From IMG/VR virus record IMGVR_UViG_2693429584_000015: a stretch of DNA of 4,474 bases; one strand, given 5' to 3'. A model generated the notes under the pieces. That model ran no database searches, had not been told where the DNA came from, and was given only the letters and a program-made list of their open reading frames with translations. Each line of letters begins with the position of its first letter. Position 1 is the first letter of the stretch. Both the position numbers and the translations under genes were made by a program. Shown in pieces: positions 549 through 4,474 of the stretch. This DNA is from a virus (taxonomy: Duplodnaviria > Heunggongvirae > Uroviricota > Caudoviricetes).

Positions 549-671
549 GTGTCCGTAATATACAGCAGCGCAATAAATTCGCTGGTGGTTATTAATACCG
601 TTCTTTCAGCTTGCTGGCTTTTTCGACAAGAGTTATTGGTGTGTCACGTTAACCGGAAAAGGGAAAAAGGC

Positions 672-869
672 ATGCTAAAACAGCAGGATATGACCGAAAC
701 CGCCAGAGTGGTGTTTAATGAATTAAGCGTCACCGAACCGGCGACCGTCGAGGAAATTGCGCAGAACACTTATCTTTCACGCGAACGCTGCCAGTTAATA
801 CTGACCCAGCTTGTTATGGCGGGTCTGGCAGATTATCAGTTCGGTTGTTACAGACGCCTTCCTCAGTGA
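672..869 (+). CDS. Small (65 aa) hypothetical protein, winged-helix-like (FaeA/PapI-like pattern, tentative)
   Basis: ATG at 672 preceded by a purine-rich stretch (aaaagggaaaaagg). Sequence MLKQQDMTETARVVFNELSVTEPATVEEIAQNTYLSRERCQLILTQLVMAGLA... shows a helix-turn-helix-like 'T..EIA ... S..R...L..L...G' pattern. The longer GTG-initiated form from 549 was rejected because it starts inside the upstream terminator T-tract. Stop codon sits inside the downstream terminator hairpin. Confidence 0.45.
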   Translation: MLKQQDMTETARVVFNELSVTEPATVEEIAQNTYLSRERCQLILTQLVMAGLADYQFGCYRRLPQ

Positions 870-879
870 AGGCTTTTTT
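856..879 (+). terminator. Rho-independent terminator
   Basis: Perfect 6-bp stem gccttc (856-861) / gaaggc (868-873), 6-nt loop, then a 6-T run (874-879). Confidence 0.55.
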
Positions 880-1019
880 ATTTGTGGTAATGGGCGGCTG
901 GTGGGTGTTAGCGGCACCTGCCAGCCATCTGCTCATGCGTTGGGGTCACAAGCAAACCTCAGGCCCATCTGCTTTGCGCAAAAGCGGTATGAGCCTATCA
1001 GAGAAGTGCTTATTGATCT

Positions 1020-2081
1020 ATGGCTAATACTGTAAAAATATCCAGTTGTAAGTTAATCAACGCTGATTGCCTGGAATTTATCCAGACCTTACCGGAAAAC
1101 TCTGTCGATCTGATAGTCACAGACCCGCCATACTTTAAAGTGAAGCCCGAGGGCTGGGATAACCAGTGGAAGGGCGACGATGATTACCTGAAGTGGCTGG
1201 ACCAGTGTCTGGCGCAGTTCTGGCGGGTGCTGAAACCTGCCGGAAGTCTTTACCTGTTCTGTGGTCATCGCCTGGCATCTGATATCGAAATCATGATGCG
1301 TGAACGCTTCAGTGTGCTGAACCATATTATCTGGGCGAAGCCGTCCGGACGCTGGAACGGATGCAACAAGGAAAGCCTGCGGGCGTATTTCCCCGCCACA
1401 GAGCGCATTCTGTTCGCGGAACATTATCAGGGGCCGTATCGTCCGAAAGATGCCGGGTATGCGGCGAAGGGCAGTGCACTGAAACAGCATGTGATGGCCC
1501 CGCTGATTTCTTACTTTCGTGATGCGCGTGCTGCTCTGGGGATAACGGCAAAACAGATTGCAGATGCCACAGGAAAGAAAAACATGGTGTCGCACTGGTT
1601 CAGTGCCAGTCAGTGGCAGCTGCCGAACGAAAGCGATTATCTGAAATTACAGGCCCTGTTTGCCCGGGTGGCAGAAGAGAAGCATCAGCGCGGTGAACTG
1701 GAATGGCCACACCACCAGCTGGTCAGCACATACAGTGAACTTAACCGGCAATATGCCAGCCTGCTGGAGGAGTACAAATCTTTGCGGCGTTATTTTTCTG
1801 TATCGGCTGCTGTTCCGTATACGGATGTCTGGATGTATAAGCCTGTACAGTATTATCCGGGCAAACACCCCTGTGAAAAACCGGCAGATATGTTGCGTCA
1901 GATAATAGAGGCCAGCAGTCGTCCGGGTGATTTGGTTGCCGACTTTTTTATGGGGTCAGGTTCCACGATAAAAGCCGCGCTTTCGCTTGGTCGTCGGGCA
2001 ATAGTTGAGCTTGAGGCTGAACGGTTTGAGCAGACGGTGAGCGAGATAAGAGAAATTCTGACGTGTAAAGCTGTTGACTGA
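1020..2081 (+). CDS. DNA methyltransferase, beta-class (N6-adenine or N4-cytosine), orphan (no adjacent restriction endonuclease)
   Basis: 353-aa ORF with an in-frame TGA at 1014-1016 fixing ATG 1020 as the first start. Catalytic motif IV 'DPPY' near the N-terminus (LIVTDPPYF) and AdoMet-binding motif I near the C-terminus (DLVADFFMGSGST); this IV-before-I order defines beta-class amino-MTases. 'HPCEKP' is typical of the class. Weak SD. Confidence 0.9.
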   Translation: MANTVKISSCKLINADCLEFIQTLPENSVDLIVTDPPYFKVKPEGWDNQWKGDDDYLKWLDQCLAQFWRVLKPAGSLYLFCGHRLASDIEIMMRERFSVLNHIIWAKPSGRWNGCNKESLRAYFPATERILFAEHYQGPYRPKDAGYAAKGSALKQHVMAPLISYFRDARAALGITAKQIADATGKKNMVSHWFSASQWQLPNESDYLKLQALFARVAEEKHQRGELEWPHHQLVSTYSELNRQYASLLEEYKSLRRYFSVSAAVPYTDVWMYKPVQYYPGKHPCEKPADMLRQIIEASSRPGDLVADFFMGSGSTIKAALSLGRRAIVELEAERFEQTVSEIREILTCKAVD

Positions 2082-2187
2082 TTAATCAATGCTTATTTTT
2101 TCATAAGTCTTGTTGCAATATATAAGTATGGGGTGTAAAGTTGTTCTCGAAAATAATCATGTTTTCTCACGAATCAGAGGGGGGATA

Positions 2188-2448
2188 ATGATTGAGGTTC
2201 GATGGACAAGGACAGCCCTGAAGCAGTTACTTCGTGTGGATACGCGGTATCGGCAGGCGATAAAGGATAAGGTCGGTGCGCTAAAGGATTTTCCTCTGGT
2301 AGCCATGGATTTTAAAAAGCTATCAGGGAGTGACAATCGATTCCGTTTGAGGGTCGGCGTGTACAGGGTTATTTTTGATGTTGAGGATGGTGATCCTGTT
2401 GTCCTGGATATTAAGGAAATTAAGCGCAGAAGCACAACCACATACTAA
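2188..2448 (+). CDS. Type II toxin, RelE/ParE superfamily (HigB-like gene order)
   Basis: 86-aa ORF; ATG 2188 preceded by a strong SD (gaGGGGGGataATG). N-terminus MIEVRWTRTALKQL and the core FRLRVGVYRVIFDVEDGDPVVLDIKEIKRR match the RelE/ParE fold signature. The upstream TTG extension in the ORF track (2110) was rejected. Followed 60 nt later by an HTH protein. Confidence 0.8.
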   Translation: MIEVRWTRTALKQLLRVDTRYRQAIKDKVGALKDFPLVAMDFKKLSGSDNRFRLRVGVYRVIFDVEDGDPVVLDIKEIKRRSTTTY

Positions 2449-2454
2449 GGGAGG

Positions 2455-2472
2455 CTGGCGGGAGACCGCCAG
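2455..2472 (+). promoter_or_regulatory. Intercistronic hairpin between toxin and antitoxin genes
   Basis: Perfect 7-bp inverted repeat ctggcgg (2455-2461) / ccgccag (2466-2472) with a GAGA loop; only 3 T's follow, so not a classic terminator. Could be an operator palindrome or an mRNA structure tuning antitoxin translation. Confidence 0.4.
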
Positions 2473-2508
2473 TTTGCTGAACGACATTCAATCGCGAAAG
2501 GCAATGAT

Positions 2509-2883
2509 ATGAAAAACAGTGTCCAGTTTATTACTGATAATGCCGGTGTTAGAACCGGGGTCATTATGTCAGTTGCTGAATATGAACGGCTGTTAAGTCT
2601 GGCAGATCCTGATGATGATTTTGAAAGCATCCAGTATGAAGCCGGAGAGCATGACAATGAAACAATACCTCATGAAGTAGTATCCATCATGATTGATGAT
2701 GATGTGTCATTGTTGGCAGCATGGCGGATTTACAGGCGAATGACTCAACAGGAAGTGGCGGAGCGCCTGGGGGTTAAACAGTCAGCCGTATCTCAGTTTG
2801 AGAGAGCAGGAGCTCCGCGAAAATCAACACTGGAAAAACTGGCTGAGATTTACAACTGCCGACCAAATCAGTTGGCTGATTAA
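2509..2883 (+). CDS. Type II antitoxin, two-domain: N-terminal antitoxin-like segment plus C-terminal HTH (XRE-family)
   Basis: 124-aa ORF; ATG 2509 with an upstream aaagg. C-terminal MTQQEVAERLGVKQSAVSQFERAG...STLEKLAEIY is a canonical XRE/Cro-type helix-turn-helix; the N-terminal part (VQFITDNAGVRTGVIMSVAEYERLL) resembles antitoxin N-domains. Acidic linker in between. Toxin-first order as in HigBA-type modules. Confidence 0.75.
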   Translation: MKNSVQFITDNAGVRTGVIMSVAEYERLLSLADPDDDFESIQYEAGEHDNETIPHEVVSIMIDDDVSLLAAWRIYRRMTQQEVAERLGVKQSAVSQFERAGAPRKSTLEKLAEIYNCRPNQLAD

Positions 2884-3028
2884 TCCTGAGTTTGGTTTTC
2901 GTAGCGATTGCATTTTTCTTATCTGCTTGCCGTTGTAGGTAGCGTGTATTTGCATGTTGTTTTGTAGTTAACCTTATGATTGGCTGAATTTTGTTCATCA
3001 ATAAAAAATATCCCTCTCTGATCTTTAA

Positions 3029-3054
3029 GGTTCGCTTTGGCGGACCTTTTTTTT
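3029..3054 (+). terminator. Rho-independent terminator (end of the TA transcript, candidate)
   Basis: Stem ggttcgc (3029-3035) / gcggacc (3040-3046) with one G-U wobble, loop tttg, then an 8-T run (3047-3054). Confidence 0.6.
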
Positions 3055-3190
3055 ATTTCCGCGCCACGCCCGGCGTACATCAAAAACCACAGAGCCTTTC
3101 AGGGGTGAGCTTACGGGATGGTCAGTGTGACTTTCTCTGTGGGCTGGTCACCCCCGGGCGCAGGCTCACCCACTAAAAGGAAAAGTCACG

Positions 3191-3622
3191 ATGTTTGGTA
3201 TTTTCAAAAAGAAAACCCGCAGAGCAGCAACTGAAATTAAAAAGTTTGAGAAACGCGATCTGGCACAGGCGGTTATTAATGCTGCCTACCTGGTGGCCTA
3301 TGCAGATGGTGAATGTGAGACTTCAGAGAAAGCGAAGATCGAACAGGTATTACGTAACCAGCCAGCATTGTCCGCATTTACGTCAGAAATTAATGCCATC
3401 AGTGCCACGATCACAGGTCAGCTTGACACCAATTTTAAAATTGGTCGTCGTGCAGCGTTGCGTGAAATTGAAGATGTGAAACACGATACGCGTGAAGCGG
3501 AAGATGTGCTGGATGTGGCGGTGGCCATTGCTGAAGCAGATGGTGAAATTGAGCCGGAAGAGCGTAAGGTTCTGGAAGAGATTGCTGGTGTTCTTGGCCT
3601 GCGACTGGAGAACCACCTGTGA
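3191..3622 (+). CDS. TerB-like (tellurite-resistance TerB domain family) protein
   Basis: 143-aa ORF; ATG 3191 with SD AGGA 9 nt upstream. Two helical repeats each carrying the 'A.ADG' signature (AAYLVAYADGECETSEKAKIEQVL and VAVAIAEADGEIEPEERKVLEEIAGVLGL) typical of TerB-domain proteins. Assigned by motif pattern, not by search. Confidence 0.7.
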   Translation: MFGIFKKKTRRAATEIKKFEKRDLAQAVINAAYLVAYADGECETSEKAKIEQVLRNQPALSAFTSEINAISATITGQLDTNFKIGRRAALREIEDVKHDTREAEDVLDVAVAIAEADGEIEPEERKVLEEIAGVLGLRLENHL

Positions 3623-3786
3623 CGGTAAAACTGCGTCTGGCCGCTGTGGCACTCCTGCTGTTTCTGGTGGTGATGGTGGATTTCACCAGCAGGATCATGT
3701 CGGTGCTGGCGGATGGAGTGCTGGTGGTCGGTATTGTGGTATTGCTGTGGCCGGTGATAAAAAGAAACAGCCTGCATAATGCTTGA
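3619..3786 (+). CDS. Small hydrophobic protein (55 aa, two predicted TM helices), translationally coupled to the TerB-like gene
   Basis: Absent from the supplied ORF track (under its size cut-off); found by manual translation. GTG 3619 overlaps the TerB TGA stop (3620-3622) in a GTGA arrangement, with GGAG (3607-3610) 8 nt upstream. Translation VTVKLRLAAVALLLFLVVMVDFTSRIMSVLADGVLVVGIVVLLWPVIKRNSLHNA has two hydrophobic segments and a basic C-terminus. CTG/GTG-rich codon use matches neighbouring genes. An internal ATG 3673 start would remove the first helix. Confidence 0.45.
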   Translation: MTVKLRLAAVALLLFLVVMVDFTSRIMSVLADGVLVVGIVVLLWPVIKRNSLHNA

Positions 3787-3951
3787 TTTTTTTGTTTACT
3801 GTTTATTAAAAATACTACTGCATGGTGAATCCCCCTGTGCGGAGGGGCAATCAGCAACCAGGTATATGTGATAATCGCGGATTCAGGTGCTGATACTGAA
3901 TTCACCGGGAGGCACCCGGCACCATGCAAGAAAAAGAATGTGCATGCAAAC

Positions 3952-3978
3952 ATGCCCCTCTCCGGAGGGGCATTTTTT
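3952..3978 (+). terminator. Rho-independent terminator (strong)
   Basis: Perfect 7-bp GC-rich stem gcccctc (3954-3960) / gaggggc (3965-3971), extendable by 2 bp, loop tccg, then a 6-T run (3973-3978). Confidence 0.65.
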
Positions 3979-3983
3979 ATGGG

Positions 3984-4010
3984 TAAAAAATGCCCGAATG
4001 GGTTCGGGCA
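3984..4010 (-). terminator. Rho-independent terminator on the minus strand (convergent with the 3952-3978 terminator)
   Basis: Perfect 8-bp stem tgcccgaa (3991-3998) / ttcgggca (4003-4010), 4-nt loop. The A6 run at 3985-3990 becomes a U-tract only for a minus-strand transcript. No minus-strand gene to the right is visible in the window. Confidence 0.45.
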
Positions 4011-4071
4011 ATAGCATGAGATACTGATATTGTTGTGTTGTTATCGTGTGGATTTTAACCAGGGTTTATCA

Positions 4072-4097
4072 GGCTGCGCAACTGCGTGGCCTTTTTT
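4072..4097 (+). terminator. Terminator-like hairpin plus T-run (weak)
   Basis: Stem ggctgcg (4072-4078) / cgtggcc (4085-4091) with two G-U wobbles, 6-nt loop, then a 6-T run (4092-4097). Confidence 0.35.
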
Positions 4098-4105
4098 CAT
4101 TTCTT

Positions 4106-4150
4106 GGGCTGTAGTCCCCGTGTGTCATTCAGGCTTCCGGACTACAGCCC
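4106..4150. repeat. 12-bp perfect inverted repeat with a 21-nt spacer
   Basis: gggctgtagtcc (4106-4117) and its exact reverse complement ggactacagccc (4139-4150), about 45 bp upstream of the esterase start codon. Confidence 0.6.
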
Positions 4151-4193
4151 ACTCCATATCTGATTTAATACACTATCCCGGCCGGGAGGAATA

Positions 4194-4474
4194 ATGACAT
4201 TTAAACATTATGATGTTGTCAGGGCGGCGTCGCCGTCAGACCTTGCGGAAAAGCTGACACACAAACTGAAAGAGGGCTGGCAGCCGTTTGGTAGTCCGGT
4301 GGCCATAACCCCTTATACCCTGATGCAGGCGATTACAGCAGAAGGTGATGTGGTGGTCAGTGGTGCAACTGAGCCGGAGTGGTACTACGTCATCGTACTG
4401 GCCGGGCAGTCCAATGCCATGGCTTACGGTGAAGGGCTTCCGCTGCCGGATTCATACGATGCTCCGGATCCGCG
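4194..4474 (+). CDS. Prophage esterase, nanS-p-like (sialate O-acetylesterase / SGNH-type); 3'-partial, continues beyond the window
   Basis: ATG 4194 with a strong SD GGGAGG (4184-4189). The N-terminal ~50 aa (MTFKHYDVVRAASPSDLAEKLTHKLKEGWQPFGSP...) resemble the small DUF1737-type domain recalled at the N-terminus of prophage NanS-p esterases, followed by the esterase motif YVIVLAGQSNAMAYGEG. No stop before the window end. Confidence 0.7.
   Translation, partial: MTFKHYDVVRAASPSDLAEKLTHKLKEGWQPFGSPVAITPYTLMQAITAEGDVVVSGATEPEWYYVIVLAGQSNAMAYGEGLPLPDSYDAPDP

What the first reader, a model, noticed from the sequence alone, without database searches (positions are those of the whole stretch)
4106..4150. 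12-bp perfect inverted repeat upstream of the esterase gene
A 12-bp perfect palindrome pair with a 21-nt spacer is unlikely by chance in 4.5 kb. It could form a long hairpin in read-through late transcripts, act as a dimeric regulator operator, or be a recombination or insertion boundary marking the right edge of the cargo island.
Basis: seen in the sequence. Interest (0 to 1): 0.4.

Follow-up and report, generated by a model that had tools for sequence, protein, structure and literature searches.

The report
Conserved RNA hairpin before phage esterase
The inverted repeat is real. It is a conserved stem-loop in the untranslated leader of the nanS-p esterase gene of Shiga-toxin-type prophages, most likely an ordinary mRNA processing or stability hairpin rather than a protein operator or the edge of the cargo island.

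Summary
The repeat exists and is one base longer per arm than reported: 4105-4117 TGGGCTGTAGTCC and 4139-4151 GGACTACAGCCCA, 13 bp perfect with a 21-nt spacer. About 0.005 such repeats are expected per window.

It lies in a lambdoid prophage late region, in this order: Q, cargo genes, STnc100 sRNA (+), AgvB anti-sRNA (-), an intrinsic terminator "T2" (4071-4092), a 12-nt U-rich linker, the hairpin, a small hairpin over the Shine-Dalgarno sequence, then nanS-p (ATG 4194).

The terminator-hairpin-nanS-p module recurs in Stx1, Stx2 and non-Stx prophages. It is present in 621 of 5426 complete E. coli genomes, with up to 7 copies, and it is unannotated everywhere I looked.

Across 16 distinct variants:
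- the arms covary (10 of 14 pairs changed on both sides, 91% paired, 0 of 500 shuffles as high);
- the loop differs completely in sequence and length (about 8-28 nt);
- G.U pairs lie on the nanS-p sense strand.

This supports a sense-strand RNA stem and argues against a fixed-spacing operator. The cargo boundary lies about 300 bp to the left, at about 3800.

Best guess, inferred and not shown: a 5'-protective or processing hairpin in the Q-antiterminated late transcript. It is a modestly interesting new member of a known kind.

The parts
4105..4117 (+). Left arm of the hairpin (TGGGCTGTAGTCC)
   Evidence: (I19). It covaries with the right arm in relatives.
4118..4138 (+). Loop of 21 nt (CCGTGTGTCATTCAGGCTTCC). 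It is replaced by unrelated, mostly C/U-rich loops of about 8-28 nt in other variants.
4139..4151 (+). Right arm of the hairpin (GGACTACAGCCCA)
   Evidence: (I19).
4071..4098 (+). Intrinsic-terminator-like hairpin 'T2' (AGGCTGCGCAACTGCGTGGCCT) plus a T6 tract. It is the most conserved piece of the module and overlaps the inferred -35 of the AgvB promoter on the other strand.
   Evidence: The exact motif is found in hundreds of phage and metagenome contigs.
4093..4104 (+). U-rich single-stranded linker between T2 and the hairpin. In 933W, E and D types it reads GUAUU, GAAUU or GUUUU, which fits the RNase E motif RN|WUU, 1-3 nt before the stem. The window's CAUUUCUU fits less well.
   Evidence: Sequences. 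The motif is quoted in PMC7547250. That this is a cleavage site is inference only.
4152..4176 (+). Unstructured leader between the hairpin and the ribosome-binding region. It starts with CUCC.
4177..4190 (+). Mini-hairpin UCCC-GGCC-GGGA overlapping the Shine-Dalgarno GGAGG (4186-4190)
   Evidence: The stem is kept with other loops (CCCGGAAAGGGG, CCCGGCAAGGGG) in the D and L262 types.
4194..4474 (+). 5' part of nanS-p (DUF1737 plus SASA esterase). It runs off the window.
3985..4046 (-). AgvB anti-sRNA gene. Its inferred promoter has -10 TAAAAT at 4057-4052 and -35 TTGCGC at 4081-4076. The hairpin lies at -59 to -105 from its start.
   Evidence: Rfam RF02702, 96.5 bits against a gathering score of 56. 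The promoter is read from the sequence (inference).
3794..3984 (+). STnc100-family sRNA with its terminator (3952-3973). It marks the left end of the segment shared with Stx phages.
   Evidence: Rfam RF02076, 144.7 bits.

Best explanation
The repeat encodes a stem-loop in the sense-strand RNA. It sits in the roughly 100-nt untranslated leader that precedes nanS-p in the Q-antiterminated late transcript of Stx-type lambdoid prophages.

In a lysogen, transcripts from the cargo genes and STnc100 stop at the STnc100 terminator and at T2, so the hairpin is hardly transcribed. After induction, Q-modified RNA polymerase reads through both terminators and the hairpin becomes part of the long late mRNA.

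I propose that it acts after transcription as a segment-boundary element. Endonucleolytic cleavage, by RNase E, in the U-rich linker between T2 and the hairpin would leave T2 as a 3' cap on the cargo/stx segment. It would leave the 13-14-bp hairpin, preceded by only about 3 unpaired nucleotides, as a 5' cap on the nanS-p and lysis segment. That cap would protect the downstream segment from 5'-end-dependent decay and would shield the nanS-p translation start region from pairing with whatever cargo lies upstream.

Shown here: the structure, its conservation and covariation, its fixed place in the module, and (weakly) its strand. Taken from the literature: that nanS-p is co-induced with the late genes. 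Inferred only: cleavage in the linker and a stabilising or insulating effect.
For: The structure is real and improbable by chance.

It always lies in the same order, T2, about 11-13 nt of U-rich linker, hairpin, SD mini-hairpin, nanS-p, in Stx1a, Stx2a/933W and non-Stx prophages. There is one copy per module in the roughly 340 loci searched with the covariance model.

Covariation: among 16 distinct variants, 91% of cells pair and 10 of 14 pairs have changes on both sides. None of 500 shuffles reaches this, and slid registers give 23-41% pairing (11 variants). For example, the window UGUAG/CUACA becomes UGCGG/CCGUG in the D type and UAAGG/CCU[G]UA, with one bulged G, in L262.

The loop sequence and length are free, which fits a stem that matters as a stem.

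Strand: the D-type stem has 3 G.U pairs on the + strand and folds at -30.4 kcal/mol on + against -22.4 on -. By my count across the 25 distinct stems, G.U pairs arise in about 14-16 separate instances, some fixed in whole lineages. A.C mismatches arise in about 5-6 instances, all rare. Fixed G.U pairs also argue against DNA-templated palindrome correction.

Within the 933W/E family, stem positions carry 0.43 variants per site against 0.99 in loop and flanks.

nanS-p is induced 1-2.4 logs by mitomycin C, like stx2 (PMC10462455), and is listed among the most strongly induced late genes (PMC8065619). The hairpin is therefore in an abundant late mRNA.

RNase E processing of an Stx-phage transcript at GU|AUU is documented for StxS (PMC7547250), and the same pentamer sits 1 nt before the stem in 933W/E-type modules.
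Against: No RNA end-mapping data for this site were available, so cleavage and stabilisation are untested.

The window's own linker (CAUUUCUU) fits the RNase E motif poorly.

Other nanS-p leaders (the JLK-2012 type and an AT-rich type) lack a comparable hairpin. It is therefore not required for nanS-p expression as such.

The commonest 933W/E variants carry one or two U.U mismatches in mid-stem, and some rare variants break further pairs.

Within that family alone the G.U versus A.C count is 5 to 4, which is no strand signal. Most G.U pairs arise by C-to-U on the + strand, which a strand-biased mutation process could mimic.
Confidence: 0.4

Rival explanations
1. RNase III processing site. The stem, with its mid-stem U.U internal loop in 933W-type variants, is cut by RNase III to split the late transcript between the cargo and the nanS-p/lysis genes.
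For: [quoted passage not shown] 1988, known to me only by its title as cited in PMC7547250). The stem is a covarying double-stranded segment with free loops. Internal 1x1 or 2x2 mismatches occur in the commonest variants, as they do in single-cut T7 sites (my own knowledge).
Against: The helix is only 13-14 bp, well below the roughly two helical turns of typical E. coli RNase III substrates (my own knowledge). The L385 variant has only about 7-8 bp. There are no cleavage data.
Confidence: 0.15
2. Translation-context element. The hairpin keeps the downstream 25-nt unstructured leader free as a ribosome standby site for an SD that is partly buried in the mini-hairpin, or it tunes nanS-p translation as the leader structures upstream of lambda S do.
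For: The SD is partly paired in a conserved mini-hairpin. Lambda has a non-homologous but similarly arranged pair upstream of S: a 13-nt inverted repeat with a 26-nt spacer, then CCCCUUAUUGGGGG, then the S start codon. A CUCC motif directly 3' of the stem can pair with GGAG in the window's minimum-energy fold.
Against: The hairpin is 30 nt from the SD. The CUCC motif is absent from the D and L262 types. Leaders without the hairpin exist. The lambda fold is not statistically unusual (z = -1.15).
Confidence: 0.12
3. A DNA quasi-palindrome with no function of its own. It hitch-hikes next to the conserved terminator and sRNA promoter, and its symmetry is renewed by template-switch (hairpin-templated) mutation rather than by selection.
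For: Palindromes are prone to templated correction and rearrangement (my own knowledge). Small duplications, insertions, deletions and junctions are seen inside this one: L032, L003, L241, L139/L147, L299. Many mid-stem mismatches are tolerated. Modules without it exist.
Against: Templated correction would give perfect Watson-Crick symmetry. Instead, lineages keep G.U pairs that are mismatches in DNA and on the other strand (D type, L139, L357). The stem is about 2.3 times less variable than loop and flanks. The stem persists while the loop is entirely replaced.
Confidence: 0.15
4. A DNA-level control element of the divergent anti-sRNA promoter (AgvB, AsxR and relatives), or an operator for a dimeric regulator of nanS-p.
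For: It lies at -59 to -105 from the AgvB start. Every hairpin-bearing module inspected has a minus-strand sRNA-like gene next to T2, while the JLK-2012 type has neither. Dyad symmetry is typical of operators.
Against: Arm spacing varies from about 8 to 28 nt and arm sequences change. No regulator gene co-varies with it; the cargo differs between stx1, stx2 and methylase/TA/TerB. The asymmetric G.U pattern breaks the dyad in DNA. A 21-28-nt spacer disfavours cruciform extrusion (my own knowledge).
Confidence: 0.06
5. A recombination or insertion signal that bounds exchangeable cargo modules.
For: Independent junctions fall inside it. In L139, L140, L147, L390 and L407, the left arm plus half the loop is fused to a methylase gene fragment. 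L299 is cut at the right arm. IS629 sits 16 nt downstream in L006. The Stx1a type combines a 933W-like left flank with the window-type hairpin.
Against: The cargo edge in this window is at about 3800, not at the repeat. The junctions are few, at different positions, and partly in decayed prophages. No recombinase is associated with it, no attC-like core sites are present, and arm sequences are not conserved as a recombinase site would require.
Confidence: 0.05

Closest known systems
5'-terminal or intercistronic mRNA stabiliser hairpins (ompA 5' stem-loop; REP-type hairpins between cistrons such as malE-malF)
   Same: A stable, sequence-free stem in an untranslated part of a polycistronic mRNA, flanked by A/U-rich single strand. 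Only pairing is conserved.
   Different: No mapped RNA end shows that it is terminal. It is a single-locus element, not a dispersed repeat like REP, and it has an unusually large loop (21-28 nt).
RNase III processing sites in the phage lambda late transcript (Daniels et al. 1988) and in T7 early/late RNAs
   Same: A phage late-operon leader hairpin between the antitermination region and the first conserved late genes. Some variants have an internal mismatch.
   Different: The helix is only 13-14 bp. There is no sequence similarity to lambda (best covariance-model score 6 bits), and cleavage is untested.
Lambda S-gene leader (13-nt inverted repeat with a 26-nt spacer, followed by the small stem-loop at the S ribosome-binding site)
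   Same: The same layout: a long-loop hairpin, then a CCC(C)...GGG(G) mini-hairpin overlapping the SD of the first gene after the late leader.
   Different: It is not homologous in sequence. Here the gene is an esterase, not a holin, with no dual start. The lambda fold is not significant against shuffles.
Intrinsic (Rho-independent) terminators such as the neighbouring T2
   Same: A G+C-rich perfect stem on the sense strand, next to a genuine terminator.
   Different: The loop is 21-28 nt instead of 3-8, and no U-tract follows the stem (CUCCAUAUC). The terminator scan does not call it.
The convergent sRNA pair at the PR' moron site (AgvB/AsxR and STnc100; Tree et al. 2014)
   Same: The same intergenic region between the moron and the conserved ORF, and part of the same exchangeable module.
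   Different: The hairpin lies outside both sRNAs, is not matched by any Rfam family, and shows no complementarity to the neighbouring sRNA beyond shuffles.

Membership tests
Intrinsic terminator | G+C-rich stem of 5-14 bp | tested here: met
   13 bp, 8 of them G-C pairs.
Intrinsic terminator | Short loop (3-8 nt) | tested here: not met
   The loop is 21 nt here and up to 28 nt in relatives.
Intrinsic terminator | U-tract within 0-2 nt after the stem | tested here: not met
   The stem is followed by CTCCATATCTGA. It is not called by the scan, which does call T2 at 4071-4092.
Palindromic operator of a dimeric regulator | Fixed centre-to-centre spacing of the half-sites | tested here: not met
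   Spacers are about 8, 11, 16, 20, 21, 25 and 27-28 nt in different variants.
Palindromic operator of a dimeric regulator | Conserved half-site sequence and a co-occurring regulator gene | tested here: not met
   10 of 14 stem positions change on both sides. The element occurs with stx1, stx2 or methylase/TA/TerB cargo.
Palindromic operator of a dimeric regulator | Specific protein binding | not testable with these tools
   Needs EMSA or pull-down.
Structured cis-acting RNA element (selected stem-loop in an mRNA leader) | Base pairing kept by compensatory changes beyond controls | tested here: met
   91% of cells paired, 10 of 14 covarying pairs, 0 of 500 shuffles as high, slid registers 23-41%.
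Structured cis-acting RNA element (selected stem-loop in an mRNA leader) | Strand-specific pairing (G.U on the transcribed sense strand) | tested here: inconclusive
   Overall, about 14-16 G.U events against 5-6 A.C events, by my count across the 25 stems listed. The D type folds at -30.4 (+) against -22.4 (-) kcal/mol. Within the 933W/E family the count is 5 to 4.
Structured cis-acting RNA element (selected stem-loop in an mRNA leader) | The element is transcribed | not tested
   Inferred from its position between stx/cargo and nanS-p, both late-induced. No read-level data were examined.
RNase III site | About 20 bp of (quasi-)continuous dsRNA | tested here: inconclusive
   13-14 bp, with weak extra pairs in the loop.
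RNase III site | rnc-dependent cleavage | not testable with these tools
   Needs an experiment.
5' stabiliser hairpin | The stem begins within about 4 nt of an mRNA 5' end | not testable with these tools
   There is only a motif-level hint: GUAUU, GAAUU or GUUUU lies 1-3 nt upstream in most types.
REP/BIME or MITE-type dispersed palindrome | Many copies at unrelated loci | tested here: not met
   There is one hit per nanS-p module, and the complete hairpin lies between T2 and nanS-p; the only other hits are a truncated copy in one decayed prophage (L299) and weak ones. In E. coli genomes the copies track prophage number, median 2; the gene context of those copies was not inspected.
Hairpin recombination site (integron attC, IS200/IS605 ends) | Located at cassette or cargo boundaries, with conserved core sites and an associated recombinase | tested here: not met
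   The cargo edge is at about 3800. Arm sequences are not conserved. No integrase or TnpA lies in the window.
Any described RNA family (Rfam 15) | A match to a covariance model | tested here: not met
   No hit overlaps 4105-4151 even at E <= 1. The neighbours match STnc100 and AgvB.

The most novel reading that the evidence does not exclude
The hairpin, together with terminator T2, is a dedicated 'segment divider' of the Stx-phage late mRNA. By setting where the transcript is cut and how long each half survives, it would fix the ratio of cargo (Shiga toxin) expression to nanS-p and lysis expression after induction. Natural stem variants (perfect in this prophage and in Stx1a phages, mismatched in 933W-type Stx2a phages) would then contribute to differences in toxin yield or lysis timing.
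Probability: 0.12. Interest if true: 0.55.

Novelty: new member of a known kind. Interest (0 to 1): 0.3.

Why it matters
The element sits in the late transcript of Shiga-toxin phages, between the toxin or other cargo and the nanS-p and lysis genes. It is present in about 11% of complete E. coli genomes, in several copies, and is unannotated. If it controls processing or stability of that transcript, it would be a cis-acting determinant of how much toxin, esterase and lysis protein an induced lysogen makes. Its natural variants would be worth correlating with Stx output. If it is only a generic stabiliser hairpin, it remains a useful landmark for annotating the conserved right-hand end of the PR' moron site: sRNA pair, terminator, hairpin, nanS-p.

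Tried and rejected
- **Rfam scan** at E <= 1. Nothing overlaps the hairpin.
- **tRNA scan.** None in the window.
- **Promoter scan of 3600-4474.** No sigma-70-like site. A hand-read extended -10 (TGATTTAAT) downstream of the stem is not conserved in other types, so a nanS-p promoter or operator reading was dropped.
- **Coding potential.** The 54-aa ORF at 4030-4194 that spans the hairpin is broken by the 7-nt loop length difference in relatives.
- **Pairing between the hairpin or loop and the neighbouring minus-strand sRNA** (AgvB, AsxR and others). Duplex energies are no better than shuffled sRNAs in 7 module types.
- **Homology to the lambda late leader.** The covariance model scores at most 6 bits.
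- **An equivalent hairpin in the alternative nanS-p leaders** (JLK-2012 type and the AT-rich type). Their folds are no better than shuffles.
- **Antiterminator logic with T2.** The hairpin lies downstream of the terminator, so it cannot pre-empt it (reasoning only).
- **A strand test by mutation spectrum within the 933W/E family.** Inconclusive.
- **Literature searches** for a described hairpin, terminator or promoter upstream of nanS-p. Nothing found. Daniels et al. 1988 could not be read.

Full report
**Observation.** The window holds a perfect inverted repeat at 4105-4117 (TGGGCTGTAGTCC) and 4139-4151 (GGACTACAGCCCA), with 13-bp arms and a 21-nt spacer. As RNA the segment folds to -28 kcal/mol, z = -7.4, and none of 200 dinucleotide shuffles folds as well. 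A perfect 13-bp repeat with a 3-60 nt spacer is expected 0.004-0.006 times in a sequence of this size and composition.

**Surroundings.** The window is the late-regulatory and moron region of a lambdoid prophage. It is 98.6% identical over 581-4474 to 'Enterobacteria phage PPyecE_EH1910' (LC567835). From left to right it contains:
- the 3' part of an antiterminator Q gene (32-430);
- a small winged-helix ORF (672-869);
- an N6/N4 DNA methylase (1020-2081);
- a ParE/RelE-like toxin (2188-2448) and an HTH antitoxin (2509-2883);
- a TerB/TciA protein (3191-3622) and a DUF3927 membrane peptide (3619-3786);
- an STnc100-family sRNA (3794-3984, + strand, 144.7 bits);
- the anti-sRNA AgvB (4046-3985, - strand, 96.5 bits, identical to the Rfam consensus);
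- a + strand terminator-like hairpin with a T6 tract, which I call T2 (4071-4092);
- a 12-nt U-rich linker, then the inverted repeat;
- a 25-nt unstructured stretch;
- a mini-hairpin UCCC-GGCC-GGGA (4177-4188) overlapping the Shine-Dalgarno GGAGG;
- the start of nanS-p (ATG 4194; DUF1737, E = 5.7e-17).

AgvB's inferred promoter (-10 TAAAAT at 4057-4052, -35 TTGCGC at 4081-4076, minus strand) overlaps T2. The repeat therefore lies at -59 to -105 from the AgvB start and 43 nt before the nanS-p start codon. This layout matches the 'convergent sRNAs between the moron and a conserved phage ORF' described by Tree et al. 2014 (PMC4104026). That paper does not mention the hairpin.

**Distribution.** The 147-bp spacer between AgvB and nanS-p has homologues in 275 phage records. 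One is identical, the Stx1a phages are about 93% identical, and the Stx2a phages including 933W are about 78% identical. In complete E. coli genomes the hairpin segment is found in 621 of 5426 genomes. The median is 2 copies and the maximum 7. All but two of the 1679 copies are on chromosomes, and none of the listed hits carries an annotation. The 933W genome record annotates nothing there either.

I collected about 410 loci from IMG/VR, GTDB genomes and metagenomes, using the NanS-p N-terminus and the T2 motif as probes. A covariance model built from 11 variants finds one strong hit per module in the roughly 340 loci it was run on. The hit is always on the nanS-p sense strand, at 31-78 bits for complete copies, against about 14-18 bits for the reverse strand. 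The element is thus a fixed part of a module: minus-strand sRNA, T2, linker, hairpin, SD mini-hairpin, nanS-p. It is not a dispersed repeat.

**What varies and what does not.** The arms pair in nearly every variant, while the loop is unrelated in sequence and length:
- 21 nt in this window and in Stx1a phages;
- 27-28 nt in 933W-type modules;
- about 25 nt in the D type;
- about 11 nt in L234;
- about 8 nt in L385.

In 16 distinct representatives, 91% of cells form standard pairs and 10 of 14 pairs show changes on both sides. None of 500 column shuffles reaches any of the five measures, and registers slid by 1-3 columns give only 23-41% pairing (11 sequences). Examples relative to the window:
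- the outermost U-A becomes C-G in 933W;
- the D type changes U-A to C-G and A-U to G-C;
- L262 changes four pairs (G-C to A-U, U-A to A-U, A-U to G-C, C-G to U-A) and adds one bulge;
- L234 changes two outer pairs.

In the 933W/E family, stem positions carry 0.43 variants per site against 0.99 in loop and flanks. The commonest Stx2a variants do have one or two U.U mismatches in mid-stem, and a few rare variants break further pairs. The constraint is on a stable stem, not on perfection.

**Which strand, and RNA or DNA.** Non-Watson-Crick pairs are mostly G.U on the + strand:
- three in the D type, which is present in about 20 loci;
- three or four in L139 and L357;
- the innermost pair (stem position 14) in all 933W/E variants.

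By my count across the 25 distinct stems listed, G.U pairs arise in about 14-16 separate instances. A.C mismatches arise in about 5-6, and all of those are rare. The D-type stem folds at -30.4 kcal/mol on the + strand against -22.4 on the - strand.

Fixed G.U pairs are mismatches in duplex DNA and on the other strand. This argues for a sense-strand RNA stem and against symmetry being maintained by hairpin-templated DNA repair. The signal is not decisive. Within the 933W/E family the count is 5 to 4, and most G.U pairs arise by C-to-U on the + strand.

- A hairpin in read-through late transcripts is the reading the evidence supports.
- A dimeric operator is not supported. The spacing is not fixed, the half-site sequences change, and the element occurs with stx1, stx2 or methylase/TA/TerB cargo, so no cargo regulator can be its partner.
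- The 'right edge of the cargo island' is not supported. Similarity to 933W, Stx1a, D-type and other phages resumes at about 3800, the start of STnc100, about 300 bp to the left.

In JLK-2012-type and AT-rich-type prophages, the whole stretch 3928-4193 (the STnc100 3' end, AgvB, T2 and the hairpin) is replaced by other sequence without a comparable hairpin. The repeat is therefore inside an exchangeable module, not at its border.

Sporadic junctions do fall within it:
- in L139, L140, L147, L390 and L407, T2 plus the left arm plus half the loop is fused to a 3' fragment of a methylase gene;
- L299 is cut at the start of the right arm, in a decayed prophage;
- L241 has lost the right arm;
- L032 has a small duplication;
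- IS629 sits 16 nt downstream in L006.

These are documented. They look like the usual fragility of palindromes rather than a recombination signal.

**Mechanism proposed.** nanS-p is a late gene. It is induced 1-2.4 logs by mitomycin C, as stx2a is (PMC10462455), and is listed among the most strongly induced genes after norfloxacin (PMC8065619). In a lysogen, + strand transcripts from the cargo and STnc100 end at the STnc100 terminator and at T2, so the hairpin is transcribed mainly after Q antitermination.

It is not a terminator itself: the loop is too large, no U-tract follows, and the scan does not call it. It also cannot act as an antiterminator of T2, because it lies downstream of T2.

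The simplest role for a sequence-free, stable stem between two cistron blocks of a long mRNA is a processing or stability element. The linker before it is U-rich. In most types it reads GUAUU, GAAUU or GUUUU, 1-3 nt before the stem, which fits the RNase E motif RN|WUU. The Stx-phage StxS RNA is cut at GU|AUU (PMC7547250).

Cleavage there would leave T2 as a 3' cap on the cargo/stx segment. It would leave the hairpin, preceded by about 3 unpaired nt, as a 5' cap on the nanS-p and lysis segment. I commit to this as the most likely function, with confidence about 0.4. My confidence that a sense-strand RNA stem is what is conserved is about 0.7. Every step after 'the stem is conserved' is inference.

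**Rivals.**
- **RNase III site.** Lambda late RNA is said to have such sites (Daniels et al. 1988, known to me by title only), but the helix here is short.
- **Translation-context element.** Lambda shows a similar layout upstream of S: a 13-nt repeat with a 26-nt spacer, followed by a CCCC...GGGGG mini-hairpin at the ribosome-binding site. It has no sequence similarity to this element.
- **Functionless quasi-palindrome.**
- **Upstream element of the sRNA promoter.**
- **Recombination signal.**

**Comparison with known elements and novelty.** No Rfam family matches, and I found no paper that describes the element. It fails the defining features of intrinsic terminators, fixed-spacing operators, dispersed REP or MITE palindromes and attC-like sites. 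It meets the covariation criterion of a structured cis-acting RNA. It works most like intercistronic or 5' stabiliser hairpins. I rate it a new member of a known kind. It is of modest interest unless it turns out to set the balance between toxin and lysis-gene expression.

Noticed in passing
window 3794-4046: STnc100 (+) and AgvB (-) are convergent sRNA genes whose terminators interlock. A second perfect 12-bp inverted repeat (3968-3979 / 3984-3995, GGGCATTTTTTA / TAAAAAATGCCC) is formed by the tail of one terminator and the stem of the other.
   Followed up: partly
window 4071-4098: The + strand terminator T2 is the most conserved piece of the whole spacer. It overlaps the inferred -35 (TTGCGC) of the minus-strand AgvB promoter, so one sequence may serve both strands.
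   Followed up: partly
window 4177-4190: The mini-hairpin UCCC-GGCC-GGGA buries the 5' half of the nanS-p Shine-Dalgarno sequence. The CCC/GGG stem is kept with different loops (GGAAA, GGCAA, GACC) in other module types.
   Followed up: partly
L344 1317-1400 (phage lambda 45116-45199): Lambda has a non-homologous 13-nt inverted repeat with a 26-nt spacer, followed by a CCCCUUAUUGGGGG stem-loop, right before the S start codons. This is the same layout as here, although its fold is not significant against shuffles.
   Followed up: partly
L139 4984-7937; also L147: Five STnc100-family copies lie in one late region, four of them in tandem just upstream of nanS-p.
   Followed up: partly
L139 5293-5420; also L140, L147, L390, L407: T2 plus the hairpin's left arm and half its loop is joined to the 3' fragment of a second DNA methylase gene, so a rearrangement junction lies inside the loop. 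The same phages carry a further complete hairpin variant before nanS-p (L139 8070-8131) with three or four G.U pairs.
   Followed up: partly
L006 1630-2939: An IS629/IS1203 element is inserted 16 nt downstream of the hairpin in an O157:H7 Stx2 phage. A paper reports an IS629 downstream of stx2 in Sakai Sp5 (PMC7430833).
   Followed up: no
window 2188-2883: A ParE/RelE-like toxin gene precedes an HTH (Xre-type) antitoxin-like gene, which is the HigBA-like reversed order. Together with the methylase and TerB/DUF3927 genes, they take the place that stx occupies in Stx phages.
   Followed up: no
L095 (JAIITD010000172.1): A contig labelled as a Veillonella MAG carries an E. coli-type prophage nanS-p gene and leader. 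This is probably a binning contaminant.
   Followed up: no
window 815-827 and 1120-1132: There is another perfect 13-bp inverted repeat (TATGGCGGGTCTG / CAGACCCGCCATA), but its arms are 292 nt apart, one in the small ORF and one in the methylase gene. With no distance limit about 0.15 such pairs are expected, so it is probably chance.
   Followed up: no
L385, L398, L357 (metagenome contigs): Further hairpin variants occupy the same position: a short one (about 7-8 bp stem, 8-nt loop), one with an internal loop, and one with three G.U pairs. The position is conserved more than any sequence.
   Followed up: partly
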